A stretch of 19,804 nucleotides of DNA from a virus. Taxonomy: Duplodnaviria > Heunggongvirae > Uroviricota > Caudoviricetes. Location: the IMG/VR virus record IMGVR_UViG_2648501400_000003; one strand, given 5' to 3'. Position numbers and translations under genes: made by a program. Of this stretch, positions 1 to 14,560 are shown one piece after another; positions within the stretch are counted from its first letter, which is position 1, and each line of letters starts with the position of its first letter. The notes beneath the pieces are model-generated. The model was not told the origin of the DNA, ran no database searches, and was given only the letters and a program-made list of their open reading frames with translations.

Positions 1-93
1 ATCTGCTCTCCAATGACTAGTCTAAAAACTAGTATTAAGACTATCACTTATTTAAGTGATATTGGTTGTCTGGAGATTCAGGGGGCCAGTCTA
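1..93 (-). mobile_element. IS2 left end, partial (IRL plus leader up to the first two bases of the orfA ATG); body of the element lies outside the window to the left
   Basis: Bases 1-97 are the exact reverse complement of 19704-19800 (checked base by base). Read on the - strand, the sequence TAGACTGGCCCCCTGAATCTCCAGACAACCAATATCACTTAAATAAGTGATAG... matches the IS2 (IS3 family) IRL and leader as I remember it. From memory, not database-checked. Confidence 0.7.
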
Positions 94-383
94 GTCAACG
101 TGATGTAGCAGAACTCGATGCCAGATACACAAAGGAGCTTGCTGATGCTAACGCGACTATCGAAAGTCTACGTGCTGATGTTTCTGCTGGGCGTAAGCGC
201 CTGCAAGTCACCGCCACCTGTGCAAAGTCAACGACCGGAGCCAGCAGCATGGGCGATGGAGAAAGCCCAAGACTTACAGCAGATGCTGAACTCAATTATT
301 ACCGTCTCCGAAGTGGAATCGACAGGATAACCGCGCAGGTTAACTACCTGCAGGAGTACATCAGGACGCAATGCCTGAAATAA
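94..383 (+). pseudogene. Rz: Rz i-spanin, 5'-truncated by the IS2 insertion (about codons 58-153 retained; N-terminal transmembrane anchor and start codon missing)
   Basis: Translation from 96 (QRDVAELDARYTKELADANATIESLRADVSAGRKRL...YIRTQCLK) aligns with the C-terminal two thirds of lambda Rz (RQRDVAALDAKYTKELADA...). The reading frame hits a TGA at 57-59 inside the IS-derived sequence, so the TTG 'start' at 66 in the ORF track is not a real start. Confidence 0.8.
145..330 (+). CDS. Rz1: Rz1 o-spanin lipoprotein, embedded in the +1 frame of Rz
   Basis: ATG at 145 gives MLTRLSKVYVLMFLLGVSAC KSPPPVQSQRPEPAAW...: a roughly 19-aa signal peptide, a lipobox-like VSAC with Cys20, and a Pro-rich mature part. 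Length (61 aa) and nesting inside Rz match lambda Rz1. Confidence 0.75.
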   Translation: MLTRLSKVYVLMFLLGVSACKSPPPVQSQRPEPAAWAMEKAQDLQQMLNSIITVSEVESTG

Positions 384-416
384 TTTTTTTTGCAAATCAC
401 AAAGTCAATTTAATGA

Positions 417-439
417 GCCTCGCGATGCGGGGCTTTTTT
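417..439 (+). terminator. Candidate intrinsic terminator after the lysis cassette
   Basis: GCCTCGC-GAT-GCGGGGC hairpin (7-bp stem including one G-U pair) followed by TTTTTT, 34 nt after the Rz stop. Confidence 0.45.
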
Positions 440-586
440 ATGTCCGCAGTAAACGCGCTTCACACGCGCGACTTATGAACACAGAACCTTTCAGGATGAC
501 CCTTGAGGATGCCGGTTTGGTGATCGGTGCCTTTCTGTGGGCCGGAATCCTGTGTGACAAGGTTCATCACTAAAAGGTGAGCACTG

Positions 587-1141
587 ATGAATTATCCAAC
601 TATCGTTAACGGCATCGATTTCCGAGATCTGATTTTTGTGGCAAACAACGATCCGGTTACAGATTCTTTTATGGTGGCAAAAGCATTTGGAAAGCTGCCG
701 AAGAACGTAGTTCGTGACATTGAACGAACCATAGAAGCTTGCCCTCCTGAGTTTGATACAAAGCTCAACTTTGAGCTTTGCTATAAAAACAATGAGTTAC
801 AGAATGGTAAGCCGCAAAAATTCTACCGTCTCCGCAAGGATGGGTTGATGCTTTTGGTTATGTCCTACACCAAAAAAGAAGCAATGCGTATCAAAATTGC
901 TTATATCAACGCATTTAACTGGATGTACGCCATGCTTCAGGTTGGTCATCGTCAATTTGAAGAAGAGAGAAATGCCGTAATGCTGGAGTACATGAAAGAG
1001 AAGGATGTCGCCAGCATGTCAGGCCGTCTGCTCAATCGCTGGGGGAGAACGAAAAAACCTCAATTGCTTGCAAAGCTGAAACGCCTGGAGAGACAGGGAC
1101 AGTTTTTATTACCGGGATTCGATAAGGGGATTCAAGCCTGA
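587..1141 (+). CDS. Rha-family phage regulatory protein (pfam Phage_pRha-like N-terminal domain)
   Basis: ATG at 587 preceded by AAGGTGA. N-terminus TDSFMVAKAFGKLPKNVVRDIER and YRLRKDGLMLLVMSYTKKEAMRIKIAYINAF match the conserved Rha-family motifs as I remember them. Sits between the lysis genes and cos. Confidence 0.65.
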   Translation: MNYPTIVNGIDFRDLIFVANNDPVTDSFMVAKAFGKLPKNVVRDIERTIEACPPEFDTKLNFELCYKNNELQNGKPQKFYRLRKDGLMLLVMSYTKKEAMRIKIAYINAFNWMYAMLQVGHRQFEEERNAVMLEYMKEKDVASMSGRLLNRWGRTKKPQLLAKLKRLERQGQFLLPGFDKGIQA

Positions 1142-1462
1142 CACATCATGCGCTGTATCGTCGCTGTATTCCTGCATTAACCATGACCGTAGCCCGACGG
1201 GGAACTCCTTCTGCGTGAGTGTGCGGGAATAATCAAAAACGATGCACACCGGGTTTTTACCGCGCTAATGATTCGCGGGTTTGTCCCTCATGCTCGCCAG
1301 TCCTGTGCGGGGGTGGAAGAAACAGGACACTCACACAGATTCTTGTGGGCACGATGCTATTCCTTTCTGGATTATCCCGATGCCATTCATGCAGGGCGCT
1401 GTATCAGACGTTCGTCATGGCTGTCAGGCTGACGGGTCCTCCCGGTGGGGTGGCCTGCCACG

Positions 1463-1474
1463 GGGCGGGAGCGT
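1463..1474. other. cosN-like cohesive-end site; predicted 12-nt 5' overhang GGGCGGGAGCGT
   Basis: CGGGTCCTCCCGGTGGGGTGGCCTGCCACG|GGGCGGGAGCGT|CGCGG parallels lambda ...CGGGTCCTTTCCGGTGATCCGACAGGTTACG|GGGCGGCGACCT|CGCGGG (lambda right end, cosN and left end, from memory). It lies about 185-195 bp upstream of the small terminase start, the same spacing as lambda cosN to Nu1. Confidence 0.65.
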
Positions 1475-1525
1475 CGCGGAAAAAGGCTAGTTTTTGCATT
1501 TCCATGGCGGCGGCAACATGTTTAG

Positions 1526-1538
1526 TAATTTATTGATA
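1526..1538 (+). promoter_or_regulatory. Candidate IHF binding site within cosB
   Basis: TAATTTATTGATA fits the IHF consensus YAANNNNTTGATW. It sits in the AT-rich stretch between cosN and the small terminase gene, where lambda has IHF site I1. Confidence 0.3.
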
Positions 1539-1658
1539 ATTAAAAGTTATTTCTCTTTTCACCTGTACAATATTTTTTTCTCCCTGTCATTAGACCAGTT
1601 TGCAATTAATTGAAATATATAAATAAACCTGATTTTCACCTGCCAGATGGAGTTGCTT

Positions 1659-2186
1659 ATGTCAAATGTGAGCGGGATCGGTGATGCTTATTACTGGAGT
1701 GTTTTTAAAATCGCCGAGGCCTTTGGGCTTCACCGGGACACAGTAAAAAAACGGCTCCTCGCGGCCAACACTCCTGTGGCTGCGACTGTCAGGGGGAACC
1801 CCGTTTACGCCCTGCAGCATGTCGGGCCAGCCCTGTTTAGTGTGAAGCATGAGGCAGCAGACTCTGTTCATGATCCATCCCGTATGGAGCCGAAAGAGAG
1901 AAAGGACTGGTACCAGTCTGAAAATGAAAGGATCAAGCTGGAAAAGGAGCAGCGAAAACTCATCCCAGTTGATGAAGTAGTCATCGTCTATTCGTCCATG
2001 AGAAAGGCTGTCGTCCAGGTTCTGGAGACAATTCCGGATGTTCTTGAACGCGATTGCGCCCTGACTCCTCAGGCCGTCGGCGTTGTACAGCAGGCCATTG
2101 ATGACCTGCGATACACTCTTCAGGAAAAATCCTACGAGGCTTGTGCTGCTGAATTAATTCCTGATGAGGAAGGAGAGAGTCTCTAG
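1659..2186 (+). CDS. Terminase small subunit (Nu1-like, N-terminal HTH)
   Basis: IAEAFGLHRDTVKKRL... HTH region and ELIPDEE C-terminus parallel lambda Nu1 (ADIFGASIRTIQNW..., ...ELIPGLLSEY). ATG at 1659 has GGAG 6 nt upstream; the upstream ATG at 1647 (ORF track start) has no SD but cannot be excluded. Confidence 0.75.
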   Translation: MSNVSGIGDAYYWSVFKIAEAFGLHRDTVKKRLLAANTPVAATVRGNPVYALQHVGPALFSVKHEAADSVHDPSRMEPKERKDWYQSENERIKLEKEQRKLIPVDEVVIVYSSMRKAVVQVLETIPDVLERDCALTPQAVGVVQQAIDDLRYTLQEKSYEACAAELIPDEEGESL

Positions 2187-2194
2187 GAGGAATA

Positions 2195-4294
2195 ATGGGT
2201 TTTTCATCAGCCCGAAATTTGGGAAGGGACATATCGGCAGGATTTTCCCCACCACGTCGCATGCCGATTTCGGAGGCTGTTAAAAAATTCATGCGTGTTC
2301 CCAAGGGGGCTGGTAACTCGGTGCCATGGGATCCTGAACTGACACCCTACATCATTGAGCCCATGAACTGCCTGGCATCGCGTGAATACGATGCGGTGAT
2401 TTTTGTTGGTCCTGCGCGAACAGGGAAGACCATTGGTCTGATCGATGGATGGATTGTCTATACCATCGTTTGCGATCCTTCGGACATGCTCGTTGTGCAG
2501 ATGACCGAAGATAAGGCCCGCGAGCATTCTAAAAAGCGCCTCGACAGAACGTTCAGAAGCAGTGCGGCGGTAAAGAAAAGAATGAGTCCACGTCGTAACG
2601 ACAATAATGTTCATGATAAGACGTTCAGGGATGGCTCGTTCCTTAAAATTGGTTGGCCCTCGGTCAACATTATGTCGTCGTCGGATTACCGGTTTGTCGC
2701 CTTAACCGATTACGACCGTTTTCCGGAGAATATCGACAGCGAGGGTGATGGTTTCTCCCTGGCCTCAAAACGTACCACCACATTTATGTCCGCCGGGATG
2801 ACTCTGGTGGAGAGCTCGCCGGGACGTGACATCTGCGACAGCAAATGGCGACGTAAGTCGCCTCATGAAGCGCCACCGACGACTGGTATTCTTTCCCTTT
2901 ACAATCGTGGTGACCGCCGCCGCTGGTACTGGCCATGTCCGCACTGCGGTGAATATTTTCAGCCAGCCATGGATGCCATGACCGGCTACCGTAATGAACC
3001 GGATCCCTTTAAAGCCAGTGAGGCGGCGTATCTACTTTGCCCGCACTGCAGCGGCATTATCACTGCGGAGAAAAAGCGTGAGCTCAATAGTGCAGGAGTC
3101 TGGTTGCGTGAAGGTCAGGTCATTGATCGTAACGGCAACGTTTCCGGTGAACCGCGCCGCTCCCGTATCGCCAGTTTCTGGATGGAAGGGCCAGCTGCTG
3201 CGTATCAGACCTGGGCGCAACTGGTTTACAAATTACTGACTGCAGAACAGGAGTATGAAGCGACAGGAAGCGAAGAAACACTCAGGGCGGTTATCAATAC
3301 CGACTGGGGATTACCTTATCTTCCCCGCGCCAGCATGGAGCAACGAAAAAGTGAACTGCTTGAGCAGCGGGCAGAGCCAGTTCCTTCCCGCAGTGTGCCG
3401 GATGGCGTTAATTTCCTTGTGGCGGCAGTGGATGTGCAGGCGGGACGTCATCGCCGTTTTGTGGTTCAGGTAACGGGCTATGGCAGCCGTGGCGAACGCT
3501 GGATTATTGATCGTTACAACATCACGCAGTCATTGCGCGGTGACAGCGACGGGGAGAGCCAGCGAATTGATCCGGCCAGCTATCCGGAAGACTGGGATGT
3601 CCTGCTGACGGATGTTTTTCATAAAAGCTGGCCGCTGGCCTCCGATCCTTCTCAACAAATGCGACTGATGGCAATGGCGGTGGACTCCGGCGGTGAAGAC
3701 GGGGTCACTGATAATGCCTATAAATTCTGGCGTCGTTGCCGTCGTGATGGCCTTGGTAAACGTATTTACCTGTTTAAGGGCGACAGCATCCGGCGCGCAA
3801 AACTGATCAGCCGTACATTCCCTGATAACACCGGACGAACGGGCCGACGGGCGCAGGCCGCAGGTGATGTGCCGCTCTGGTTTCTTCAGACGGATGCCCT
3901 GAAAGACCGGGTGAATAACGCGTTATGGCGTGACTCGCCAGGTCCCGGCTATGTGCATTTCCCTGACTGGCTGGGGAGCTGGTTTTACGACGAACTGACG
4001 TATGAAGAGCGGAGCAGTGACGGGAAATGGAGTAAACCGGGTCGCGGTGCCAACGAAGCTTTTGACCTGATGGTGTATGCCGAGGCTCTGGTCATTCTGC
4101 ATGGATACGAAAAGATCCGCTGGCCGGATGCACCGGAGTGGGCGAGCCGGGAAACCTGGCTGGAGTGTGTCCCGGACAGTACCGAACCGTCACCCTCACC
4201 GGAACCGGTATCCACGCCTGTTAAAAAACAAAAACGGAAGAAAACAGTAACTGACGATGTTAACCCCTGGCTGACTTCCGGAGGATGGTTATGA
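2195..4294 (+). CDS. Terminase large subunit (lambda GpA family)
   Basis: 699-aa ORF with perfect AGGAGG SD. Walker A-like VGPARTGKT near the N-terminus; position directly after the small subunit; size and overall architecture as for lambda A. Confidence 0.9.
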   Translation: MGFSSARNLGRDISAGFSPPRRMPISEAVKKFMRVPKGAGNSVPWDPELTPYIIEPMNCLASREYDAVIFVGPARTGKTIGLIDGWIVYTIVCDPSDMLVVQMTEDKAREHSKKRLDRTFRSSAAVKKRMSPRRNDNNVHDKTFRDGSFLKIGWPSVNIMSSSDYRFVALTDYDRFPENIDSEGDGFSLASKRTTTFMSAGMTLVESSPGRDICDSKWRRKSPHEAPPTTGILSLYNRGDRRRWYWPCPHCGEYFQPAMDAMTGYRNEPDPFKASEAAYLLCPHCSGIITAEKKRELNSAGVWLREGQVIDRNGNVSGEPRRSRIASFWMEGPAAAYQTWAQLVYKLLTAEQEYEATGSEETLRAVINTDWGLPYLPRASMEQRKSELLEQRAEPVPSRSVPDGVNFLVAAVDVQAGRHRRFVVQVTGYGSRGERWIIDRYNITQSLRGDSDGESQRIDPASYPEDWDVLLTDVFHKSWPLASDPSQQMRLMAMAVDSGGEDGVTDNAYKFWRRCRRDGLGKRIYLFKGDSIRRAKLISRTFPDNTGRTGRRAQAAGDVPLWFLQTDALKDRVNNALWRDSPGPGYVHFPDWLGSWFYDELTYEERSSDGKWSKPGRGANEAFDLMVYAEALVILHGYEKIRWPDAPEWASRETWLECVPDSTEPSPSPEPVSTPVKKQKRKKTVTDDVNPWLTSGGWL

Positions 4295-4503
4295 ATCAGA
4301 ATGATATTGAAGCCATGATTCAGCGTTATACGGAAGCTGAAATGGCGGTGCTGGACGGAAAATCCGTCACTTTTAATGGTCAGCAGATGACCATGGAAAA
4401 CTTATCTGAGATCCGGCAGGGGCGGCAGGAGTGGGAGCGCCGCCTTGCGGCTCTGATTACACGACGACGGGGGCATCCCGGGTACCGGTTGGCGAGGTTC
4501 TGA
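4291..4503 (+). CDS. Head-tail joining protein (gpW-like)
   Basis: 70-aa ORF, ATG overlapping the terminase stop (ATGA), GGAGG 6 nt upstream. Size, position between terminase and portal, and the C-terminal ...RRRGHPGY resemble lambda W (...RRRGPAGFYV). Confidence 0.65.
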   Translation: MNQNDIEAMIQRYTEAEMAVLDGKSVTFNGQQMTMENLSEIRQGRQEWERRLAALITRRRGHPGYRLARF

Positions 4504-6011
4504 TGGCAATTCTTGATGATGTGATTGGCGTTTTTTCACCAGGATGGAAAGCGGCAAGGCTGCGTTCCCGTGCGGTGATCCAGGCTTATGAGGCCGTAAA
4601 AACGACGCGGACACACAAAGCCCGACGGGAGAACCGAACTGCCGACCAGTTAAGCCAGTACGGGGCCGTGTCGTTACGTGAGCAGGCCCGTTACCTTGAT
4701 AACAACCACGATCTGGTCATTGGTGTATTTGACAAGCTGGAAGAACGGGTGGTGGGGAAAAACGGGATTATTGTCGAGCCACATCCGGTATTACGCAATG
4801 GGGCCATTGCCCGTGATCTGGCAGCGGAGATACGCACCCGATGGAGTGAATGGTCTGTCAGTCCGGAAGTCACCGGGCAGTTTACCCGTCCGATGCTGGA
4901 ACGTCTGATGCTGCGTACCTGGCTGCGCGATGGTGAGGTGTTTGCCCAGATGGTTTCCGGGCGCATAAACAGCCTGACGCCTTCTGCCGGTGTTCATTTC
5001 TGGCTGGAGGCGCTCGAGCCGGACTTTATTCCCATGACCAGTGATGAGAGCAACAGGCTGAATCAGGGCGTGTTTGTTGATGACTGGGGGCGTCCCGAAA
5101 AATATCTGGTGTATAAAAGCCGTCCCGTATCCGGACGGCAGATGGAAACCAAAGAAGTGGATGCAGAGCGAATGCTGCATCTTAAATTTGTTCGCCGTCT
5201 GCACCAGATGCGCGGGACGTCTTTATTGTCCGGTGTGCTGATCCGCCTCAGCGCCCTGAAAGAGTATGAAGATTCTGAGCTGACTGCAGCAAGGATCGCC
5301 GCTGCTCTGGGGATGTACATCCGGAAAGGCGACGGACAGAGCTATGAAACGGATGGTAATGACAGCAAGGAGAATGAACGCGAGCTTACCATTCAGCCAG
5401 GCATTATTTACGACGATCTGAAACCCGGCGAAGAAATCGGAATGGTGAAGTCGGATCGTCCCAATCCTAACCTGGAAACTTTTCGTAATGGTCAGTTGCG
5501 TGCCGTGGCGGCGGGCAGTCGTCTGAGTTTTTCCAGTACGGCACGCAACTATAACGGCACTTACAGCGCCCAGCGTCAGGAACTGGTTGAGTCTACTGAT
5601 GGCTACCTGATCCTGCAGGACTGGTTTATTGGTGCCGTCACCCGTCCGATGTATCGTGCCTGGCTGAAACAGGCTGTGGCATCCGGTGTTATCAGGCTAC
5701 CCCGCGATCTTGACCGTTCTTCACTGTATACCGCGGTGTATTTCGGACCAGTGATGCCGTGGATTGACCCTGTTAAGGAGGCTGAGGCCTGGAAAATCCA
5801 GATTCGTGGTGGAGCGGCGACAGAATCAGACTGGGTACGTGCTGGTGGTCGTAATCCGGATGATGTCAAACGTCGGCGCAAGGCCGAAATTGATGAAAAC
5901 CGCAAGCTGGATCTGGTATTTGATACCGATCCGGCCAGTGATAAAGGAGGCAGCAGTGCCGCAACGAAACGACAGGAGCCGCAGCACACCGACGACCAGT
6001 CCGAAGAATAA
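4503..6011 (+). CDS. Portal protein
   Basis: 502-aa ORF starting at the ATG that overlaps the W stop (TGATG), GAGG 5 nt upstream. Position and size are typical of the portal in the lambda gene order. The ORF-track start at 4431 is an upstream in-frame extension overlapping W. Confidence 0.85.
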   Translation: MAILDDVIGVFSPGWKAARLRSRAVIQAYEAVKTTRTHKARRENRTADQLSQYGAVSLREQARYLDNNHDLVIGVFDKLEERVVGKNGIIVEPHPVLRNGAIARDLAAEIRTRWSEWSVSPEVTGQFTRPMLERLMLRTWLRDGEVFAQMVSGRINSLTPSAGVHFWLEALEPDFIPMTSDESNRLNQGVFVDDWGRPEKYLVYKSRPVSGRQMETKEVDAERMLHLKFVRRLHQMRGTSLLSGVLIRLSALKEYEDSELTAARIAAALGMYIRKGDGQSYETDGNDSKENERELTIQPGIIYDDLKPGEEIGMVKSDRPNPNLETFRNGQLRAVAAGSRLSFSSTARNYNGTYSAQRQELVESTDGYLILQDWFIGAVTRPMYRAWLKQAVASGVIRLPRDLDRSSLYTAVYFGPVMPWIDPVKEAEAWKIQIRGGAATESDWVRAGGRNPDDVKRRRKAEIDENRKLDLVFDTDPASDKGGSSAATKRQEPQHTDDQSEE

Positions 6012-6024
6012 TTCCTGGTTCAGG

Positions 6025-7983
6025 ATGCAGGCTGGTCACCAGAGTGACGCGGATATTTATATTTATGACGAGATTGGTTTCTGGGGTGTTACAGCGAAGC
6101 AGTTTATCAGTGATCTGAATGCACTGGGCGATATCACCCACATTAATCTTCATATTAATTCACCGGGTGGCGATGTCTTTGAAGGCATCGCCATTTTTAA
6201 TGCACTGAAAACACATGGTGCGTCCATTACCGTTTATGTCGACGGTGTGGCGGCGTCAATGGCGTCGGTCATTGCGATGGTGGGAAACCCGGTCATTATG
6301 CCGGAAAACACTTTCATGATGATTCATAAACCATTTGGCTTTACGGGCGGTGATGCGGAGGACATGCGCACCTATGCCGACCTGCTCGATAAAGTTGAGG
6401 CGGTTCTGTTACCCGCTTATGCACAGAAAACCGGGAAAACCACCGATGAAATTGCTGCCATGCTGGCGGATGAGACCTGGATGTCCGGTGCCGAATGTCT
6501 GGCACATGGATTTGCTGATCAGGTAACGCCAGCCGTTAAGGCAATGGCATGTATTCAGTCAAAACGTACAGAGGAATTTAAAAAGATGCCGGAATCCATT
6601 CGAAACATGATTACTCCGCCACGCAACAGTGCTCCACGCGTACAGGATGATGAACCTGCAGCCTCCCGGACGCCAGTGCAGGCAGCAGCACCCGTGGTGG
6701 ATGAAAACAGTATCCGTGCGCAGGTACTGGCAGAGCAAAAAGCGCGTGTAAACGGTATTAATGATCTGTTTGCCATGTTTGGCGGGCGTTATCAGACGCT
6801 GCAGGCTCAGTGTCTTGCCGATCCTGAATGTTCGCTGGAGCAGGCCCGCGAAAAGCTGTTGAACGAGATGGGGCGCGAGTCCACGCCATCCAATAAAAAT
6901 ACCCCGGCTCATATTTATGCCGGTAACGGTAATTTTGTGGGGGACGGGATCCGCCAGGCGCTGATGGCGCGTGCCGGATTTGAAAAAACCGAACGTGATA
7001 ATGTCTACAACGGGATGACCCTGCGTGAATATGCCCGTATGTCACTGACTGAACGGGGTATTGGGGTTTCCGGTTATAACCCGATGCAGATGGTCGGTGC
7101 GGCGTTCACACACAGTACGTCTGACTTCGGTAATATTCTGCTGGATGTTGCGAACAAAGCCATTCTGCAGGGCTGGGAAGATGCCCCTGAAACCTATGAA
7201 CAGTGGACGCGGAAAGGTCAGTTGTCTGATTTTAAAATTGCCCATCGTGTGGGTATGGGGGGCTTCAGTGCTCTGCGTCAGGTGCGTGAAGGGGCGGAAT
7301 ATAAATACGTCACCACCGGAGATAAACAGGCCACTATTGCACTGGCGACCTATGGCGAGCTGTTCAGTATCACCCGTCAGGCCATTATCAATGATGATCT
7401 GAATATGCTGACCGATGTCCCGATGAAACTGGGCCGTGCGGCGAAATCCACCATTGCCGATCTGGTTTATGCCATTCTGACGTCTAACCCGAAAATCTCC
7501 ACAGATAATGTAAGTCTGTTCGATAAAGCGAAACATGCAAACGTACTGGAGAGCGCTGCAATGGACGTGGCATCGCTGGATAAAGCCCGCCAGTTGATGC
7601 GCGTTCAGAAAGAGGGGGAGCGTCATCTGAATATTCGTCCTGCGTTCGTACTGGTACCGACGGCGATGGAGTCTGTTGCTAACCAGGTCATTCGCTCCTC
7701 AAGTGTCAAGGGGGCTGACATTAACGCCGGTATTATTAACCCGGTGAAAGATTTTGCGACCGTTATTGCAGAGCCTCGTCTTGATGATAACAGCCAGACC
7801 ACCTTCTACCTGGCTGCGTCCAAAGGCTCCGATACGATTGAAGTGGCTTATCTCAACGGTGTGGATACGCCATATATTGATCAGATGGAGGGCTTCAGTG
7901 TGGATGGCGTGACAACGAAAGTGCGTATTGACGCCGGTGTCGCGCCAGTTGATCACCGCGGTCTGGTGAAATGTACGGCGTAA
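6025..7983 (+). CDS. Fused head maturation protease (ClpP-like) - scaffold - major capsid protein
   Basis: N-terminal domain has ClpP-type catalytic motifs GVAASMAS (Ser) and MMIHKP (His). A Pro/Ala/Gln-rich middle segment precedes a roughly 310-aa C-terminal domain the size of a major capsid protein. First ATG after the portal stop; the ORF is open upstream to 5764 but that part overlaps the portal. Confidence 0.85.
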   Translation: MQAGHQSDADIYIYDEIGFWGVTAKQFISDLNALGDITHINLHINSPGGDVFEGIAIFNALKTHGASITVYVDGVAASMASVIAMVGNPVIMPENTFMMIHKPFGFTGGDAEDMRTYADLLDKVEAVLLPAYAQKTGKTTDEIAAMLADETWMSGAECLAHGFADQVTPAVKAMACIQSKRTEEFKKMPESIRNMITPPRNSAPRVQDDEPAASRTPVQAAAPVVDENSIRAQVLAEQKARVNGINDLFAMFGGRYQTLQAQCLADPECSLEQAREKLLNEMGRESTPSNKNTPAHIYAGNGNFVGDGIRQALMARAGFEKTERDNVYNGMTLREYARMSLTERGIGVSGYNPMQMVGAAFTHSTSDFGNILLDVANKAILQGWEDAPETYEQWTRKGQLSDFKIAHRVGMGGFSALRQVREGAEYKYVTTGDKQATIALATYGELFSITRQAIINDDLNMLTDVPMKLGRAAKSTIADLVYAILTSNPKISTDNVSLFDKAKHANVLESAAMDVASLDKARQLMRVQKEGERHLNIRPAFVLVPTAMESVANQVIRSSSVKGADINAGIINPVKDFATVIAEPRLDDNSQTTFYLAASKGSDTIEVAYLNGVDTPYIDQMEGFSVDGVTTKVRIDAGVAPVDHRGLVKCTA

Positions 7984-8006
7984 ACGTCGCAGACAACAAC
8001 TCTGAT

Positions 8007-8026
8007 GGCCCGTAAGGGCTTTTTTT
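8007..8026 (+). terminator. Weak intrinsic terminator-like hairpin plus T-run after the capsid gene
   Basis: GGCCC-GTAA-GGGC followed by TTTTTTT, immediately after the capsid stop. A second hairpin (CAGCCCC-TGAAC-GGGGCTG, 8038-8056) follows without a T-run. Confidence 0.35.
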
Positions 8027-8069
8027 GTACCTGAAATCAGCCCCTGAACGGGGCTGTGCGGAGACAGTT

Positions 8070-8393
8070 ATGGCAAAGAATTTTGTAGAAGAAGGAAAAA
8101 CGGTGGCGATTGTTGCCAGTGCAGCCATCAGCAGCGGAGATCTGGTGCAGGTGGGTGATGTTTTTGCGGTGGCGCTGACCGATATTCCACAGGGTGAAAC
8201 AGGCGACGGCATGACCGAAGGTGTGTTTATCCTGCCTAAACTGAAAACGGATGACATGAAAACGGGTAAGAAGGTTTATCTGAAGTCCGGAAAAGTTCAG
8301 CTGACTAACAGCGGCTCTGATCCGCTGGTCGGGGTTGTCTGGGCAGATGCCGGAACCAGTGCAGAAGAAGTGCCGGTAAAACTCAATGTCTGA
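8070..8393 (+). CDS. DUF2190-family small head protein (putative head decoration/cement protein)
   Basis: 107-aa ORF from the ATG with GGAGA SD (MAKNFVEEGKTV...). Small Gly/Val-rich protein immediately after the capsid gene, the usual position of DUF2190 proteins. Family assignment from memory. Confidence 0.55.
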   Translation: MAKNFVEEGKTVAIVASAAISSGDLVQVGDVFAVALTDIPQGETGDGMTEGVFILPKLKTDDMKTGKKVYLKSGKVQLTNSGSDPLVGVVWADAGTSAEEVPVKLNV

Positions 8394-8661
8394 TCCCTTT
8401 TCCCGGCTGGCAGCGCGTATGGATGCGATCACGGTCAGAAAGATGGGAAAGACAGCCTCGATTAATGATGTCGATATGGCTGTGATCCCGGGCGAAACAC
8501 TGGCAGAACTGAATGCTCTGTCCGGACCTGCGGTCTCTCTGGTGGTGTTTTCTTCGGGATACCGCCCACGGCGCGGGGATCGCGTTGTTTATGACGGACA
8601 ACAATGGACGGTCACACGGCATGAACGTTTTAACGGTAAGCCAATGATCTTTATTGAGTAA
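8386..8661 (+). CDS. Head-tail attachment protein (gpFII-like, Phage_attach family)
   Basis: 91-aa ORF overlapping the previous stop, located directly before the Z homolog as FII is in lambda. Product assignment is positional plus weak recall. Confidence 0.5.
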   Translation: MSDPFSRLAARMDAITVRKMGKTASINDVDMAVIPGETLAELNALSGPAVSLVVFSSGYRPRRGDRVVYDGQQWTVTRHERFNGKPMIFIE

Positions 8662-8672
8662 AGAGGTGTGGG

Positions 8673-9251
8673 ATGAAGGGGCTTGAGAATGCCATCCGCA
8701 ATCTGAACAGCCTTGATACCCGTATGGTGCCACAGGCCAGCGCATGGGCGATAAACCGTGTGGCACAGAAAGCGGTCTCGGTTGCCACCCGGCAGGTTGC
8801 CGGGAATACCGTTGCGGGAGATAACCAGGTGAAAGGGATCCCCCTGAAACTGGTACGTCAGCGTGTCCGGGTGTTTAAAGCCAGTCCGTCAGGAAAAATG
8901 ACGGCCAGGATCCGCGTTAACCGGGGCAATCTGCCCGCCATTAAGCTGGGGACAGCCCGGGTCAGACTGGCCCGGCGTGGTGGAAAACTGCAGTACCGTG
9001 GCAGTGTGCTGAAGGTGGGTAAATATCTTTTCCGGGATGCGTTTATTCAGCAACTGGCGAATGGTCGCTGGCATGTGATGCGGCGTATTGATGGCAAAAA
9101 TCGTTACCCCATTGATGTGGTGAAAATCCCGCTTTCCGGACCGCTGACACAGGCATTTGAAGATGCCCGCGACCGCATCATTGCTGCGGAAATGCCGAAA
9201 CAGCTGGGGTATGCACTGAAACAACAACTGAGGTTATGGCTGACCCGATGA
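8673..9251 (+). CDS. Z: Minor tail protein Z
   Basis: 192 aa, same length as lambda Z. Shared stretches include KGLE, AINRV, IRVNRGNLPAIKLG, FIQQLANGRWHVM, GKNRYPIDVVKIP and LGYAL.QQLR. AGAGG SD. Confidence 0.85.
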   Translation: MKGLENAIRNLNSLDTRMVPQASAWAINRVAQKAVSVATRQVAGNTVAGDNQVKGIPLKLVRQRVRVFKASPSGKMTARIRVNRGNLPAIKLGTARVRLARRGGKLQYRGSVLKVGKYLFRDAFIQQLANGRWHVMRRIDGKNRYPIDVVKIPLSGPLTQAFEDARDRIIAAEMPKQLGYALKQQLRLWLTR

Positions 9252-9649
9252 ACCGACATACACAAATCCGCCAGGTCGTACTGGCACGCCTTCGGGAGCA
9301 GTGTGGAGACAGCGCCACGTTTTTTGACGGGCTTCCGGCATTTGTTGATGCGCAGGAACTGCCTGCCGTGGCGGTGTGGCTGAGTGATGCTCAGTACACC
9401 GGAAAAATGACGGATGAAGATGACTGGCAGGCTGTTCTGCATATTGCTGTCTTCATCCGGGCACAGGCACCGGATTCAGAGCTGGATATGTGGATGGAGA
9501 GCACCATTTTCCCGGCCCTGAATGATGTACCGGCACTTTCCGGACTCATCGACACCCTGATCCCACTCGGTTTTAACTATCAACGTGATAATGAGATGGC
9601 CACCTGGGCGATGGCGGAAATCACGTACCAGATCACGTACACGAATTAA
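9248..9649 (+). CDS. U: Minor tail protein U (tail terminator)
   Basis: ATG overlaps the Z stop (ATGA). ATFFDG, PAVAV.L, YTG, PDSELD.WMES and ITY.ITY motifs parallel lambda U. Confidence 0.85.
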   Translation: MNRHTQIRQVVLARLREQCGDSATFFDGLPAFVDAQELPAVAVWLSDAQYTGKMTDEDDWQAVLHIAVFIRAQAPDSELDMWMESTIFPALNDVPALSGLIDTLIPLGFNYQRDNEMATWAMAEITYQITYTN

Positions 9650-9659
9650 GGAGGTGGTA

Positions 9660-10403
9660 ATGACCACACCAAATCCACTGGCAAAGACGAAAGGTGCGGG
9701 GACGACGTTCTGGATGTATACCGGCAAGGGCGATGCGTTTGCGAACCCTTTGTCGGACACTGACTGGCTGCGTCTTGCGATGGTGAAGGATCTGCAACCT
9801 GGCGAAATGACCACTGATGCAGAAGATGACACTTATCTCGATGATGAGGATGCAGACTGGAAAACGACAACCCAGGGGCAGAAATCCGTTGGTGATACTT
9901 CGGCGACGCTGGCCTGGCGTCCGGGTGACAGCGGGCAGAAAAAACTGGTTCAGTTGTTCGACTCCGGTGAAGTCTGCGCGTTTCGTATCAAATATCCCAA
10001 CGGTACTGTTGATGTTTTCCGCGGCTGGCTGAGCTCACTGGGTAAAACCATTGCCTCAAAAGACGTGATGACCCGCACTGTGAAAATCAGCGGTGTGGGG
10101 CGTCCGTATCTGGCAGAGGAAGGCACTGAAACCGTGAGCGTTACCGGGCTGACGGTGGCACCGGCATCTGCCAGTGTAAAAGTGGGAGCAACCACCACGC
10201 TGACCTTTACAGTAAAACCTGACGGAGCCAGTGACAAAGCGATCAGTGTGCATTTGACAGATCCACAGACTGCCACGGTGACCCTGAACGGGCTTGTGGC
10301 CACGGTGAAAGGCGTGAAGCAGGGCAGTGTCAGCATTGTGGGCATGACTTCTGACGGCGATTTTGTGGCAGTGGCTACGGTGGCTGTCAGCGCCGCAGGT
10401 TAA
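9660..10403 (+). CDS. V: Major tail protein V with C-terminal Ig-like (Big_2-type) domain
   Basis: AAGGAGG SD. MTTPNPLAKTKGAGTTFWMY...YLDDEDADW...FRGW closely parallels lambda V ([20 protein letters not shown]...); the C-terminal 90 aa are a beta-rich Ig-like region as in lambda V. Confidence 0.9.
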   Translation: MTTPNPLAKTKGAGTTFWMYTGKGDAFANPLSDTDWLRLAMVKDLQPGEMTTDAEDDTYLDDEDADWKTTTQGQKSVGDTSATLAWRPGDSGQKKLVQLFDSGEVCAFRIKYPNGTVDVFRGWLSSLGKTIASKDVMTRTVKISGVGRPYLAEEGTETVSVTGLTVAPASASVKVGATTTLTFTVKPDGASDKAISVHLTDPQTATVTLNGLVATVKGVKQGSVSIVGMTSDGDFVAVATVAVSAAG

Positions 10404-10423
10404 CAGGACGATACTCATCATTT

Positions 10424-10447
10424 GCCCCGGTTATCCGGGGCTTTTTT
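10424..10447 (+). terminator. Intrinsic terminator after the major tail gene
   Basis: GCCCCGG-TTAT-CCGGGGC perfect 7-bp GC stem followed by TTTTTT, 20 nt after the V stop. Confidence 0.6.
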
Positions 10448-10460
10448 GCAGGTGGAGAAC

Positions 10461-10850
10461 ATGATGTTTCTGAAACAGGGCACGTTTAATTATGAAAAGC
10501 AGTCCGTGGTGCTCAGTGAGCTGTCCGGGCTGCAGAGAATTGAATATCTGGCGTTTGTTCAGCAGCGAACGGCAAAGTTTGATGCCGAAGAGGGAGAACT
10601 GCCGGAGGCTGAACGACAGATTGCTTTTCTGCGGATGGGGATGGATATCAATGCCTGGCTGGTTTCCCGCTCACTGTGGAATGCGGAACAGTCTCAGGAT
10701 GTTGAGACGCTTTGCGCATCCGTTATTACAACATGGTCGTATGATGCCCTGGGAGCGGGGGCGGAGATGGTTCTGTCGCTGAGCGGTATGGGAGCCATTG
10801 AGAATGCCGGGGATCTGGAGCATGAGGTGCTGACGCCGGAAAAGTCCTGA
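10461..10850 (+). CDS. G: Tail assembly chaperone G
   Basis: MMFLKQGTFNYEKQSVVLSELSGLQRIEYLAF parallels lambda G (MFLKTESFEHNGVTVTLSELSALQRIEHLAL). GGAG SD; the start could be the ATG at 10461 or 10464. The ORF-track start at 10422 overlaps the V terminator. Confidence 0.85.
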   Translation: MMFLKQGTFNYEKQSVVLSELSGLQRIEYLAFVQQRTAKFDAEEGELPEAERQIAFLRMGMDINAWLVSRSLWNAEQSQDVETLCASVITTWSYDALGAGAEMVLSLSGMGAIENAGDLEHEVLTPEKS

Positions 10851-11188
10851 CGCGGGAAATGCAGTTTGTCATGCGGCTTGCCCGGGAGTTCCGGCGGGCA
10901 GACTGGCGGCGGATGCTGTCGGAAATGTCGGCCACTGAGCTTGGTGAGTGGGGCGATTATTTCCGGATGCAGAGCTTCAGTGATGTGTGGATGGATGCGC
11001 AGTTTGCCTCGCTGAAGGCATTGATCGTGAGAATGGTGTCCGGCAGCAGTGATGCTGCGGTGGCTGATTTCAGCCTTTTACCGGAAGAGAACGGGATACC
11101 GGAGCGAACGGACGAAGAACTGATGCATCTTGGGGAAGGTATTTCCGGAGGTGTGCGTTATGGACCAGATAGCCAACCTGGTCATTGA
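10461..11188 (+). CDS. T: Tail assembly chaperone G-T fusion, made by -1 programmed frameshift near the end of G (T part 10826-11188)
   Basis: The T ORF is in the -1 frame relative to G and open from 10826, overlapping the last 22 nt of G, as in lambda G/T. Candidate slip site G GAA AAG at 10838-10844 (lambda has G GGA AAG). Confidence 0.6.
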
Positions 11189-14100
11189 TTTGGGGATTGA
11201 TGCGGCAGAGTTTAAAAATGAAATTCCCCGTATCAAAAACCTTCTGAATGGTGCAGCCAGCGATGCAGAACGGTCTTCTGCCCGTATGCAGCGTTTTATG
11301 GAGCGTCAGACTCAGGCCGCCAGGCAGACAACGCAGGCGGCTTCTTCGGCTGCAACAGCCGCATCCGTCCATGCGCAGACGGTGGAGAAGAACGCACAGG
11401 CTCATGAACGCATGGCCCGCGAGGTGGAGAAAACCCGCCAGCGCATGGAGGCACTGAGCCAGAAAATGCGCGAGGAACAGGCGCAGGCCATGGCTCTGGC
11501 GGAGGCTCAGGATAAAGCGGCTGCTGCGTTTTATCGTCAGATTGACAGTGTGAAACAGGCCAGTGCGGGGCTACAGGAATTACAGCGTATTCAGCAGCAG
11601 ATCCGACAGGCCAGAAACAGTGGCGGGATTGGCCAGCAGGATTATCTGGCGCTGATTTCTGAGGTTACTGCGAAAACCCGTGTTCTTACACAGGCTGAGG
11701 AAGAGGCTACCCGACAGAAAGTGGCGTTTATCCGTCAGCTTAAAGAGCAGGCAACCCGCCAGAATCTTTCATCTTCTGAGTTGCTTCGTGCCAGGGCAGC
11801 CCAGCTAGGGGTAAGCAGTGCTGCAGAAGTGTATATCCGCAAAATGGAGCAGGCAGGAAAAGCCACGCATTCGCTGGGTCTGAAAAGTGCAGCAGCCCGC
11901 CAGGAGATAGGCGTTCTGATAGGTGAACTGGCCCGTGGCAATTTAGGAGCGCTGAGGGGATCCGGGATAACGCTGGCTAACCGTGCCGGATGGATAGACA
12001 CACTGATGTCACCGAAAGGCATGATGCCAGGAGCGGTTATTGGCGGTATTGCCGCGGCCGTCTATGGTCTGGGTAAAGCCTGGTATGACGGTCAGAAGGA
12101 GGGGGAAGAATTTAACCGCCAGCTATCACTGACGGGGCATTATGCCGGAGTCACTGCCGGGCAGCTGTGGACGCTCAGTCGTGCTATTTCCGGGAATGGT
12201 ATCACGCAACATGCTGCAGCCGGTGCGCTGGCTCAGGTGGTGGGGAGTGGTGCATTTCGTGGAAACGATATCGGTATGGTGGCGAGAGCTGCCGCACAGA
12301 TGGAGCGATCGGTTGGCCAGTCGGTCAGCGATACCATAAATCAGTTTAAGCGGCTGAAGGATGATCCTGTAAATGCCGCGAAGGCTCTGGACAATGAGCT
12401 GCATTTTCTTACTGCCACTCAGCTTGAGCAGATACGCGTCCTTGGGGATCAGGGGCGGTCCAGTGATGCGGCACGGATAGCCATGTCTGCACTGGCAGAG
12501 GAAACCGGTCGGCGTACTGCGGATATTGATAATAACCTCAATGCGCTGGGCAGTACGCTGAAGTATCTGTCTGATTTATGGAGTCGTTTCTGGGATGCGG
12601 CCATGAATATTGGTCGTGAAGACTCGCTGGATGAACAGATTGCCGCTTTACAGGAGAAAGTGTCGCGGGCGAAAAGACTCCCCTGGACGGCATCATCTTC
12701 TCAGGTTGAATACGATCAGCAGCGTCTTAACGATCTTCAGGAGAAAAAACGCCAGAAGGATTTGCAGGATGCAAAAGAGCAGGCAGAGCGGAATTATCAG
12801 GAGCAACAGAAACGCCGTAATGCTGAAAATGCTGCACTGAACCGGATGAATGAAACGGAAGCAGCACGACATCAGCGTGAAATTGCGCGTATTAATGCCA
12901 TGCAGTACGCCGATCAGGCTGTCAGGGATGCGGCGATACAACGTGAAAATGAACGTTACGAGAAAGCCCTGGCATCCGGTAAGAAAAAAACACGCGAAAC
13001 CCGTAATGATGAGGCCACCCGGTTATTGCTGCAGTACAGTCAGCAACAGGCACAGGTGGAAGGACAGATTGCTGCTGCCAGACAGTCAGCAGGCATTGCC
13101 ACGGAAAGGATGACAGAAGCGCATAAACAGCTTCTGGCTCTGCAGCAGCGCATCAGCGACCTGGACGGGAAAAAACTGACGGCAGATGAAAAGAGTGTGC
13201 TGGCCAGTAAAGATGAACTGATTCAGGCACTGACGCTGCTGGATGTAAAACAGCAGGAGCTTCAGAAACAGACGGCACTCAACGATCTGAAGAAAAAAAC
13301 AATTCAGCTGACCAGTCAACTGGCTGAAGAAGAGCGCGCTCAGCGTCAGCAACATGACCTGGATATCGCCACGGTGGGTATGGGTGATCAGCAGCGGCAG
13401 CGATATCAGGTACAACTGAGTCTTCGCCAGAAATACCAGCAACAGCTGGAGCAGTTGAGGCGGGATAGTGAGCAGAAAGGGACATATAACACGGATGACT
13501 ACAGAAAGGCCGAGCAGGCGCTGACGGAGAGCCTGAACCGACAACTGAATGAGAATCGCCGTTACTGGCAACAGCTTGAAATTGCTCAGGGTAACTGGAA
13601 AAACGGTGCCATGCGGGCGTTTCAGAATTTCACGGCAGATGCGGATAATGCGGCAGGCACTGCTGAGCAGATGCTTACAGCGGCATTTAACAGTGCTGGT
13701 AATGCACTGGCGACCTTCTGTACCACCGGAAAACTGAACTTCAAATCTTTTACCGCCTCACTCCTTTCCGATCTGGCAAAAATTATGGCGCAGATGGCCA
13801 TGATGCAGGCGGTGAAGGGGATTGGTTCGGCGTTTGGCTGGGGGAGTGCTGCCGCTGCCAGTGTGACGCCCAATGCTGATGGTGGCGTTTATCAGTCGGC
13901 TGATTTGAGTCGCTACAGCGGCACGGTGGTTAACCGACCGACGTTTTTTGCTTTTGCAAAAGGCGCGGGTGTGATGGGGGAAGCGGGACCTGAAGCCATT
14001 CTGCCACTGCGCCGTGGTGCTGACGGTAAGCTGGGGGTTGTGGCAAATATTGGTGGTTCAGGTATGGCGATGTTTGAGCAGAATAACCATGTGGTGATTA

Positions 14101-14234
14101 ACAACGACGGCACGAACGGGCAGATAGGTCCGGCTGCTCTGAAGGCGGTGTATGACATGGCCCGCAAGGGTGCCCGTGATGAAATTCAGACACAGATGCG
14201 TGATGGTGGCCTGTTCTCCGGAGGTGGACGATGA
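11160..14234 (+). CDS. H: Tail tape measure protein H
   Basis: 1024-aa ORF from the ATG with GGAG SD, after G/T. Long Gln/Glu/Arg/Ala-rich predicted coiled-coil body. The C-terminus ...FEQNNHVVINNDGTNGQIGPAALKAVYDMARKGARDEIQTQMRDGGLFSGGGR matches lambda H as I recall it; the N-terminus MDQIANLVIDLGIDAAEF parallels lambda MAEPVGDLVVDLSLDAARF. Confidence 0.9.
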   Translation: MDQIANLVIDLGIDAAEFKNEIPRIKNLLNGAASDAERSSARMQRFMERQTQAARQTTQAASSAATAASVHAQTVEKNAQAHERMAREVEKTRQRMEALSQKMREEQAQAMALAEAQDKAAAAFYRQIDSVKQASAGLQELQRIQQQIRQARNSGGIGQQDYLALISEVTAKTRVLTQAEEEATRQKVAFIRQLKEQATRQNLSSSELLRARAAQLGVSSAAEVYIRKMEQAGKATHSLGLKSAAARQEIGVLIGELARGNLGALRGSGITLANRAGWIDTLMSPKGMMPGAVIGGIAAAVYGLGKAWYDGQKEGEEFNRQLSLTGHYAGVTAGQLWTLSRAISGNGITQHAAAGALAQVVGSGAFRGNDIGMVARAAAQMERSVGQSVSDTINQFKRLKDDPVNAAKALDNELHFLTATQLEQIRVLGDQGRSSDAARIAMSALAEETGRRTADIDNNLNALGSTLKYLSDLWSRFWDAAMNIGREDSLDEQIAALQEKVSRAKRLPWTASSSQVEYDQQRLNDLQEKKRQKDLQDAKEQAERNYQEQQKRRNAENAALNRMNETEAARHQREIARINAMQYADQAVRDAAIQRENERYEKALASGKKKTRETRNDEATRLLLQYSQQQAQVEGQIAAARQSAGIATERMTEAHKQLLALQQRISDLDGKKLTADEKSVLASKDELIQALTLLDVKQQELQKQTALNDLKKKTIQLTSQLAEEERAQRQQHDLDIATVGMGDQQRQRYQVQLSLRQKYQQQLEQLRRDSEQKGTYNTDDYRKAEQALTESLNRQLNENRRYWQQLEIAQGNWKNGAMRAFQNFTADADNAAGTAEQMLTAAFNSAGNALATFCTTGKLNFKSFTASLLSDLAKIMAQMAMMQAVKGIGSAFGWGSAAAASVTPNADGGVYQSADLSRYSGTVVNRPTFFAFAKGAGVMGEAGPEAILPLRRGADGKLGVVANIGGSGMAMFEQNNHVVINNDGTNGQIGPAALKAVYDMARKGARDEIQTQMRDGGLFSGGGR

Positions 14235-14560
14235 AAACCTTCCGCTGGAAAGTGAAACCCGGTATGGATGTGGCTTCGGCCCCTTCTGTAAGAAAGGTGC
14301 GCTTTGGTGATGGCTATTCCCAGCGAGCGCCTGCCGGGCTGAATTCCAACCTGAAAACGTACAGCGTGACGTTTTCTGTTCCCCGTTGGGAGGCCACGGC
14401 GCTGGAGTCGTTTCTGGCTGAGCACGGGGGCTGGAAAGCCTTTCTGTGGACGCCGCCTTATGAGTGGCGGCAGATAAAGGTGACCTGCGCAAAATGGTCG
14501 TCGCGGGTCAGTATGCTGCGTGTTGAGTTCAGCGCAGAGTTTGAACAGGTGGTGAACTGA
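14231..14560 (+). CDS. M: Tail tip protein M
   Basis: 109 aa, ATG overlapping the H stop (ATGA). Same length and junction geometry as lambda M; sequence appears near-identical to lambda M from memory. Confidence 0.95.
   Translation: MKTFRWKVKPGMDVASAPSVRKVRFGDGYSQRAPAGLNSNLKTYSVTFSVPRWEATALESFLAEHGGWKAFLWTPPYEWRQIKVTCAKWSSRVSMLRVEFSAEFEQVVN

What the first reader, a model, noticed from the sequence alone, without database searches (positions are those of the whole stretch)
1..383. Rz i-spanin decapitated by IS2 while the nested Rz1 o-spanin stays intact
The left IS2 end abuts Rz sequence at 93/94, corresponding to about codon 58 of lambda Rz. The N-terminal transmembrane anchor and start codon are gone, but the embedded +1-frame Rz1 lipoprotein gene (145-330) is complete, with signal peptide and lipobox Cys. 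Rz1 would therefore be an unpartnered o-spanin, and the holin/endolysin genes that should lie upstream are now beyond an IS element. Outer-membrane disruption by this prophage is predicted to be defective.
Basis: partly seen in the sequence, partly recalled or inferred. Interest (0 to 1): 0.5.

Follow-up and report, generated by a model that had tools for sequence, protein, structure and literature searches.

The report
IS2-cut prophage Rz, intact Rz1
A common jumping gene (IS2) has cut off the front of a prophage gene needed to break the bacterial outer membrane, leaving the small gene nested inside it whole; this is ordinary prophage decay in an E. coli-type draft genome, not a new system.

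Summary
Window 1-93 is the reverse complement of the IS2 left end (92/93 identical to K-12 IS2A) and ends exactly at the IS2 terminus. From base 94 the sequence is the 3' 290 nt of a 145-codon P22/HK97-type Rz gene. The break lies in codon 50, which aligns with lambda Rz R57/Q58. The start codon and the transmembrane anchor are missing. The +1-frame Rz1 gene (145-330) is complete, with a Shine-Dalgarno sequence, signal peptide, VSAC lipobox and Cys20.

- The window is a whole 19,804-bp draft contig (GCA_001266175.1, JHSW01000062.1).
- Its right end also stops in an IS2 left end, which removes about 140 C-terminal residues of tail-tip protein J.
- So the assembly broke at IS2 repeats. What lies beyond the left IS2 (S, R, the Rz 5' end) cannot be read here and could not be recovered.

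A prophage 99.986% identical over 14.2 kb has an intact holin-endolysin-Rz cassette, so the insertion is recent. E. coli K-12 Rac (rzpR pseudogene with intact rzoR) shows the same configuration. A spanin-null lysis defect is a fair prediction, but the prophage already has a second lesion in J. Low interest.

The parts
1..93 (-). Left end of IS2 (IRL side, IS2 nt 1-93, up to the first two bases of the insA/insC start codon). The IS2 body would lie to the left, outside the contig.
   Evidence: 92/93 identical to annotated K-12 IS2A nt 1-93, with a precise terminus
94..383 (+). 3' remnant of the Rz i-spanin gene: last two bases of codon 50, codons 51-145 and the stop. No start codon and no transmembrane anchor.
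   Evidence: Alignment to intact Rz of L001, L002, L003, L014 and L020. Pfam PF03245 E=1.4e-33, profile positions 30-125 of 126
145..330 (+). Complete Rz1 o-spanin gene in the +1 frame (61 aa). It has a signal peptide with R4 and K7, lipobox V-S-A-C with Cys20, and Lys at +2.
   Evidence: Pfam PF06085 E=2.3e-20. 95-97% identical to Rz1 of intact relatives, including annotated Sf101 Rz1. Cys20 aligns with lambda Rz1 Cys20
132..137 (+). AAGGAG Shine-Dalgarno sequence 7 nt upstream of the Rz1 ATG. It is untouched by the insertion.
   Evidence: Read directly from the sequence
66..383 (+). Mechanical ORF (105 aa) that starts at a TTG inside the IS2 end and runs in frame into the Rz remnant. It has no hydrophobic segment and is bounded upstream by TGA 57-59. 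Probably not a gene.
   Evidence: This exact product is not on record in the protein collection
415..445 (+). Terminator-like GC-rich hairpin plus T-run just after the lysis cassette
   Evidence: Consensus scan only
16636..19710 (+). Tail-tip / host-specificity protein J, truncated after about residue 1023 of about 1165. The stop codon TAG is supplied by the first bases of the second IS2.
   Evidence: NCBIfam lambda_TipJ matched over profile positions 1-1022 of 1163. Intact J of 3498 nt in strain CT282. Sequence
19708..19804 (+). Second IS2 left end (nt 1-97), inverted relative to the first. It carries the same A-to-G variant at IS2 nt 88. The contig ends here.
   Evidence: 96/97 identical to K-12 IS2A nt 1-97

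Best explanation
A copy of IS2 sits in codon 50 of the Rz i-spanin gene of a lambdoid prophage in an E. coli-type draft genome. It is oriented opposite to the phage late operon.

Shown:
- The piece right of IS2 keeps the periplasmic part of Rz but has lost the start codon and the N-terminal membrane anchor.
- The nested Rz1 gene, with its own ribosome-binding site, signal peptide and lipobox, is untouched.

Inferred:
- No functional inner-membrane spanin subunit can be made from this locus.
- If late transcription still crosses IS2, Rz1 would be made, lipidated and sent to the outer membrane. Without Rz it cannot form the periplasm-spanning complex that fuses the two membranes.
- Lysis would therefore stall at the spherical-cell stage, as in lambda Rz mutants.

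The event is recent and is one of at least two IS2 hits in this prophage. The other truncates tail-tip protein J. This is prophage decay by IS expansion, not a designed arrangement.
For: - IS2 terminus and identity.
- Break point and loss of residues 1-49.
- Pfam Rz and Rz1 assignments.
- Rz1 integrity.
- Intact cassette in relatives: the order holin-endolysin-Rz(145 aa)-Rha-terminase is seen. L020 matches window 94-14294 at 99.986% without gaps, so the insertion is recent.
- Recurrence in this prophage family: a complete IS2 sits in the same orientation in the endolysin gene of a 99.5%-identical prophage (L008, CP043258.1). It is flanked by a 5-bp GCCCT duplication, so it is a simple insertion.
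- Other IS2-cut Rz alleles: P0001 and P0002 end in exactly the IS2 right-end read-through predicted.
- Second IS2 and truncated J.
- Requirement for both spanin subunits and for the Rz membrane anchor: PMC5295617, PMC6139136.
Against: - The other side of the IS2 is not in the contig, because the window is the whole contig. Simple insertion with a GTCAA duplication is therefore assumed, not shown.
- The predicted reciprocal product, Rz(1-51) plus IS2 read-through, was absent from the homologue search. It was also absent from an exact look-up of 10 length variants and from DNA pattern scans.
- Expression of Rz1 downstream of IS2 is untested. No promoter-like site was found on the + strand in 1-700.
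- Another prophage in the same genome might supply a compatible Rz.
Confidence: 0.9

Rival explanations
1. The IS2 marks a deletion or rearrangement rather than a simple insertion. On this view the 19.6-kb late-gene block (Rz' to J') is a prophage remnant bracketed by two inverted IS2 copies. The holin, endolysin and Rz 5' end are either gone or located elsewhere (IS2-mediated adjacent deletion, or inversion between the two copies).
For: - Both contig ends are IS2 left ends facing inward.
- No reciprocal Rz(1-51)-IS2 right-end junction was found as a protein or as DNA.
Against: - The negative searches are weak. The DNA collections searched do not hold this assembly's other contigs. The protein clustering is also imprecise: the Rz1 cluster contains endolysins.
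- The rest of the block is 99.986% identical to an intact prophage, which argues for very recent single events.
- The IS2 in the endolysin gene of L008 is a plain insertion with a target duplication.
Confidence: 0.25
2. The IS2/Rz junction is an assembly artefact, that is, a chimeric join at a contig end.
For: The junction sits 93 nt from the end of a short-read draft contig.
Against: - The join falls exactly at the canonical IS2 terminus at both contig ends.
- A random chimera would not do that twice.
- IS2-cut Rz genes and an IS2-cut endolysin gene are seen in other genomes.
Confidence: 0.02
3. The orphan Rz1 is kept and expressed as a host outer-membrane lipoprotein with a role of its own, as has been speculated for rzoR and rzoD of K-12 cryptic prophages.
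For: - Rz1 with its ribosome-binding site is intact.
- K-12 Rac keeps an intact rzoR inside a truncated rzpR.
Against: - The insertion is too recent for retention to mean selection.
- Rz1 survives simply because IS2 landed 51 nt upstream of it.
- There is no promoter-like site between IS2 and Rz1.
Confidence: 0.03

Closest known systems
E. coli K-12 cryptic prophage Rac: rzpR pseudogene with embedded intact rzoR
   Same: A 5'-truncated Rz gene (300-nt pseudogene) still contains a complete 61-codon Rz1-type lipoprotein gene.
   Different: - In Rac the truncation is an old deletion, not an IS2 insertion.
- The allele is lambda-type: RzoR is 93% identical to lambda Rz1, whereas the window's Rz1 is only 40% identical.
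Embedded two-component spanins of the HK97/P22/Sf101/CUS-3/POCJ13 family (Kongari et al. 2018, PMC6139136)
   Same: - The same Rz/Rz1 sequences: 94-98% DNA or protein identity to Sf101, POCJ13 and E. coli prophage copies.
- Rz1 lies in the +1 frame in the distal half of Rz.
   Different: Here the i-spanin gene lacks codons 1-49, so only the o-spanin half of the pair is intact.
IS2 insertions in lysis genes of sister prophages (L008 endolysin::IS2; Rz::IS2 alleles P0001 and P0002)
   Same: The same element in the same orientation relative to the late operon, in the same cassette.
   Different: - The insertion sites differ.
- L008 is a complete genome, so both IS2 ends and the 5-bp duplication are visible.
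Lambda Rz amber / Rz1+ mutants (e.g. lambda900 RzQ100am Rz1+, PMC5295617)
   Same: The genotype is the same: no functional Rz and an intact Rz1. The expected phenotype is a lysis block with spherical cells in Mg2+.
   Different: - Those are engineered point mutants in an otherwise fully functional phage.
- Here the phenotype is only inferred, and the prophage has further damage.

Membership tests
IS2 (IS3 family insertion sequence) | Terminal sequence identical to the IS2 end, stopping at the canonical terminus | tested here: met
   92/93 (left) and 96/97 (right) identity to annotated K-12 IS2A nt 1-93 and 1-97
IS2 (IS3 family insertion sequence) | insA/insB transposase genes and the right inverted repeat present | not testable with these tools
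   The contig ends 93 or 97 nt into the element
IS2 (IS3 family insertion sequence) | 5-bp target-site duplication flanking the element | not testable with these tools
   The other junction is outside the contig. The predicted junction was not found
Rz i-spanin (Pfam PF03245) | Sequence match to the Rz family | tested here: met
   E=1.4e-33, 116 bits against a cut-off of 25.4, but only profile positions 30-125 of 126
Rz i-spanin (Pfam PF03245) | N-terminal transmembrane anchor and start codon (type II inner-membrane topology) | tested here: not met
   Residues 1-49 are absent. The frame is closed by TGA 57-59, and the only upstream start (TTG 66) adds a hydrophilic IS2-derived peptide. The piece is a gene fragment, not a functional member.
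Rz1 o-spanin (Pfam PF06085; HK97-type embedded family) | Sequence match to the Rz1 family | tested here: met
   E=2.3e-20, 72.5 bits against a cut-off of 27.9. 97% identical to annotated Sf101 Rz1
Rz1 o-spanin (Pfam PF06085; HK97-type embedded family) | Lipoprotein signal peptide with lipobox Cys, and no Asp at +2 (outer-membrane sorting) | tested here: met
   MLTRLSKVYVLMFLLGVSA-C20-K. Cys20 aligns with lambda Rz1 Cys20. No dedicated signal-peptide predictor was run.
Rz1 o-spanin (Pfam PF06085; HK97-type embedded family) | Gene embedded in the +1 frame of Rz, with its own ribosome-binding site | tested here: met
   145-330 lies inside 94-383 in the +1 frame, with AAGGAG at 132-137
Rz1 o-spanin (Pfam PF06085; HK97-type embedded family) | Forms a complex with a cognate Rz and is needed for outer-membrane disruption | not testable with these tools
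   This needs genetics or biochemistry

The most novel reading that the evidence does not exclude
The two inward-facing IS2 copies might make the 19.6-kb late-gene block (Rz' to J') an invertible or mobilisable unit. Alternatively, the stranded Rz1 might be expressed as a stand-alone outer-membrane lipoprotein that benefits the host. Nothing in the data points to either reading. They are simply not excluded.
Probability: 0.03. Interest if true: 0.3.

Novelty: already known. Interest (0 to 1): 0.08.

Why it matters
It matters little beyond annotation.
- The Rz remnant in this contig should be marked as a pseudogene.
- Rz1, which gene callers often miss, should be annotated.
- The prophage should be scored as defective (Rz and J).
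- It is one more example of IS2 expansion eroding lambdoid prophages.
- It also shows that a feature lying at a contig end made of repeat sequence cannot be interpreted beyond that end.

Tried and rejected
1. Searched for the source genome or the same junction elsewhere.
   - No record among 5,426 complete E. coli genomes spans window 1-600.
   - The junction pattern gave 0 hits in genome contigs, viral contigs and metagenome contigs.
2. Looked up exact proteins.
   - Rha and TerL gave only relatives with intact Rz.
   - The truncated J finally identified the contig.
   - The 105-aa TTG-started fusion ORF is not on record.
3. Tried to find the reciprocal junction.
   - I predicted the product Rz(1-51)+WICPYISRHLL...GER.
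   - The homologue search returned no such protein.
   - Exact look-up of 10 length variants found nothing.
   - DNA pattern scans found nothing.
4. P0013 breaks after the same codon 51. Its contig continues with an unrelated 22-nt sequence and comes from another genome, so I rejected it as the partner.
5. In L015, L019, L022 and L024 only Rz1 was called, which looked like further broken Rz genes. Rz is intact there and the difference is only in gene calling.
6. I looked for an IS2-provided outward promoter for Rz1. None was detected.
7. NCBIfam has no model that hits either spanin piece.
8. A unimolecular spanin is rejected, because relatives have the two-gene embedded pair.

Full report
**What is in the sequence**

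The first 93 bases of the window, read on the minus strand, are the left end of IS2. They match nt 1-93 of the annotated K-12 element IS2A at 92 of 93 positions. The match ends exactly at the IS2 terminus TAGACTGG. Only this stub is present. The IS2 body and its transposase genes would lie further left.

From base 94 the sequence aligns without gaps to the 3' part of intact 438-nt Rz genes of E. coli prophages and of phage Sf101. Base 94 is the second nucleotide of codon 50 of the 145-codon gene.

The missing 49 residues include the start codon and the hydrophobic N-terminal anchor. The Rz frame is closed upstream by TGA at 57-59. The only in-frame start is a TTG at 66 inside IS2. It would add nine hydrophilic IS2-derived residues and no membrane segment.

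Pfam places the remnant in PF03245, covering profile positions 30-125 of 126 with E=1.4e-33.

**Rz1**

The +1-frame ORF at 145-330 encodes 61 residues. It scores PF06085 at E=2.3e-20. It is 95-97% identical to the Rz1 of intact relatives, including the annotated o-spanin of Sf101. Its features are:
- an AAGGAG Shine-Dalgarno sequence 7 nt upstream of the ATG;
- a positively charged N-terminus and a hydrophobic core;
- the lipobox V-S-A-C, whose Cys20 aligns with the lipoylated Cys20 of lambda Rz1;
- Lys at +2.

Its one unusual residue (Tyr9 in the signal peptide) is also present in the intact sister prophage L020. So the nested o-spanin gene is intact.

By its nearest phage relatives (Sf101, POCJ13, CUS-3), the pair belongs to the embedded HK97/P22 spanin family listed by Kongari et al. 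(PMC6139136).

An exact look-up of the truncated J protein showed that the window is a complete contig: GCA_001266175.1, JHSW01000062.1, 19,804 bp. Its right end (19708-19804) is a second IS2 left end, inverted relative to the first and carrying the same A-to-G variant at IS2 nt 88.

That IS2 supplies the stop codon of tail-tip protein J after about residue 1023. A full-length relative has about 1165 residues, and the NCBIfam lambda_TipJ profile is matched only over positions 1-1022 of 1163.

The contig is therefore the unique DNA between two IS2 repeats at which a draft assembly broke. Both junctions fall on canonical IS2 termini, so they are real insertion junctions, not chimeras. Nothing beyond either IS2 can be read.

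**Age and ordinariness of the event**

Locus L020, from another assembly, matches window 94-14294 at 99.986% with no gaps. It carries holin, endolysin and an intact 145-codon Rz directly upstream. The IS2 hit is therefore very recent, and the rest of the late region shows no other lesion up to 14.3 kb.

IS2 hits in this cassette recur:
- A 99.5%-identical prophage in a complete genome (L008, CP043258.1) has a whole IS2 in its endolysin gene. It lies in the same orientation and is flanked by a 5-bp GCCCT duplication.
- Two other Rz alleles (P0001, P0002) end in exactly the peptide predicted for read-through into the IS2 right end.

E. coli K-12 itself carries the same end state in cryptic prophage Rac: a 5'-truncated rzpR pseudogene containing an intact rzoR.

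**How it most likely works**

Shown: the i-spanin gene is split, its 3' part lacks a start and an anchor, and Rz1 is whole.

Inferred from lambda genetics: Rz needs its N-terminal transmembrane domain to sit in the inner membrane. Rz and Rz1 must bind through their periplasmic domains. [quoted passage not shown] This locus should therefore give a spanin-null phenotype.

Whether Rz1 is made at all depends on late transcription crossing IS2 antisense to its transposase genes. From general knowledge, antiterminated lambda-type transcription can read through IS polarity, but this was not tested here. No promoter-like site lies between IS2 and Rz1.

The practical weight of the lysis defect is small, because the same prophage has lost the C-terminal part of J.

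**What could not be settled**

It remains open whether S, R and the first 51 codons of Rz still sit on the far side of the IS2 (simple insertion with a GTCAA duplication), or whether they were deleted or moved.

I predicted the reciprocal product, Rz(1-51) followed by WICPYISRHLL…GER (79 aa). It was not found among 4,065 homologues. It was not found by exact look-up of ten length variants. Pattern scans of genome and metagenome contigs also found nothing.

These negatives are weak:
- The DNA collections do not contain this assembly's other contigs.
- The protein clustering is visibly imprecise. The Rz1 cluster contains endolysins.

I put simple insertion at roughly three in four and IS2-associated deletion or rearrangement at roughly one in four.

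**Verdict**

Both components and this configuration are already known, and the event is ordinary prophage decay by IS2.

Noticed in passing
window 19708-19804 and 16636-19710: The right end of the window is a second IS2 left end, inverted relative to the first. It truncates tail-tip protein J after about residue 1023 of about 1165, and IS2 supplies the TAG stop. The 19.6-kb late-gene block is thus bracketed by two inward-facing IS2 left ends.
   Followed up: yes
whole window: The window is an entire draft contig (GCA_001266175.1, JHSW01000062.1, 19,804 bp). Both of its ends are assembly breaks inside IS2.
   Followed up: yes
L008 7751-9081 (CP043258.1): A complete IS2 (99.8% identical to K-12 IS2A) sits in the endolysin gene of a 99.5%-identical prophage. 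It has the same orientation and a 5-bp GCCCT target duplication.
   Followed up: partly
database proteins P0003, P0009, P0011, P0034, P0038, P0061, P0098: There is a recurrent class of 127-132-aa proteins carrying both Pfam Rz and Rz1 domains. The two sequences read (P0061, P0098) are frameshift fusions that join the Rz N-terminal membrane anchor to the whole Rz1 reading frame. They could be sequencing errors or real alleles. They are seen in several E. coli genomes, including complete chromosomes.
   Followed up: no
L027 10001-10176 (GCA_019436645.1): Another Rz allele departs from homology right after the same ...CGTCAA (codon 51). It continues with CTGTCAACGCCAAGATTATTGGC up to the contig end. 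The nature of the adjoining sequence is unknown.
   Followed up: partly
window 415-445: A GC-rich hairpin followed by a T-run lies between the Rz stop and the Rha gene. It looks like an intrinsic terminator at the end of the lysis cassette.
   Followed up: no
window 587-1141: A Rha-family / ORF11CD3-domain gene (184 aa) sits between the lysis cassette and the terminase genes. It is conserved at this position in relatives.
   Followed up: no
cluster 2: The 90% cluster that holds this 61-aa Rz1 also holds 158-aa endolysins. Cluster membership in that collection is therefore not a reliable guide to homology for very short proteins.
   Followed up: no
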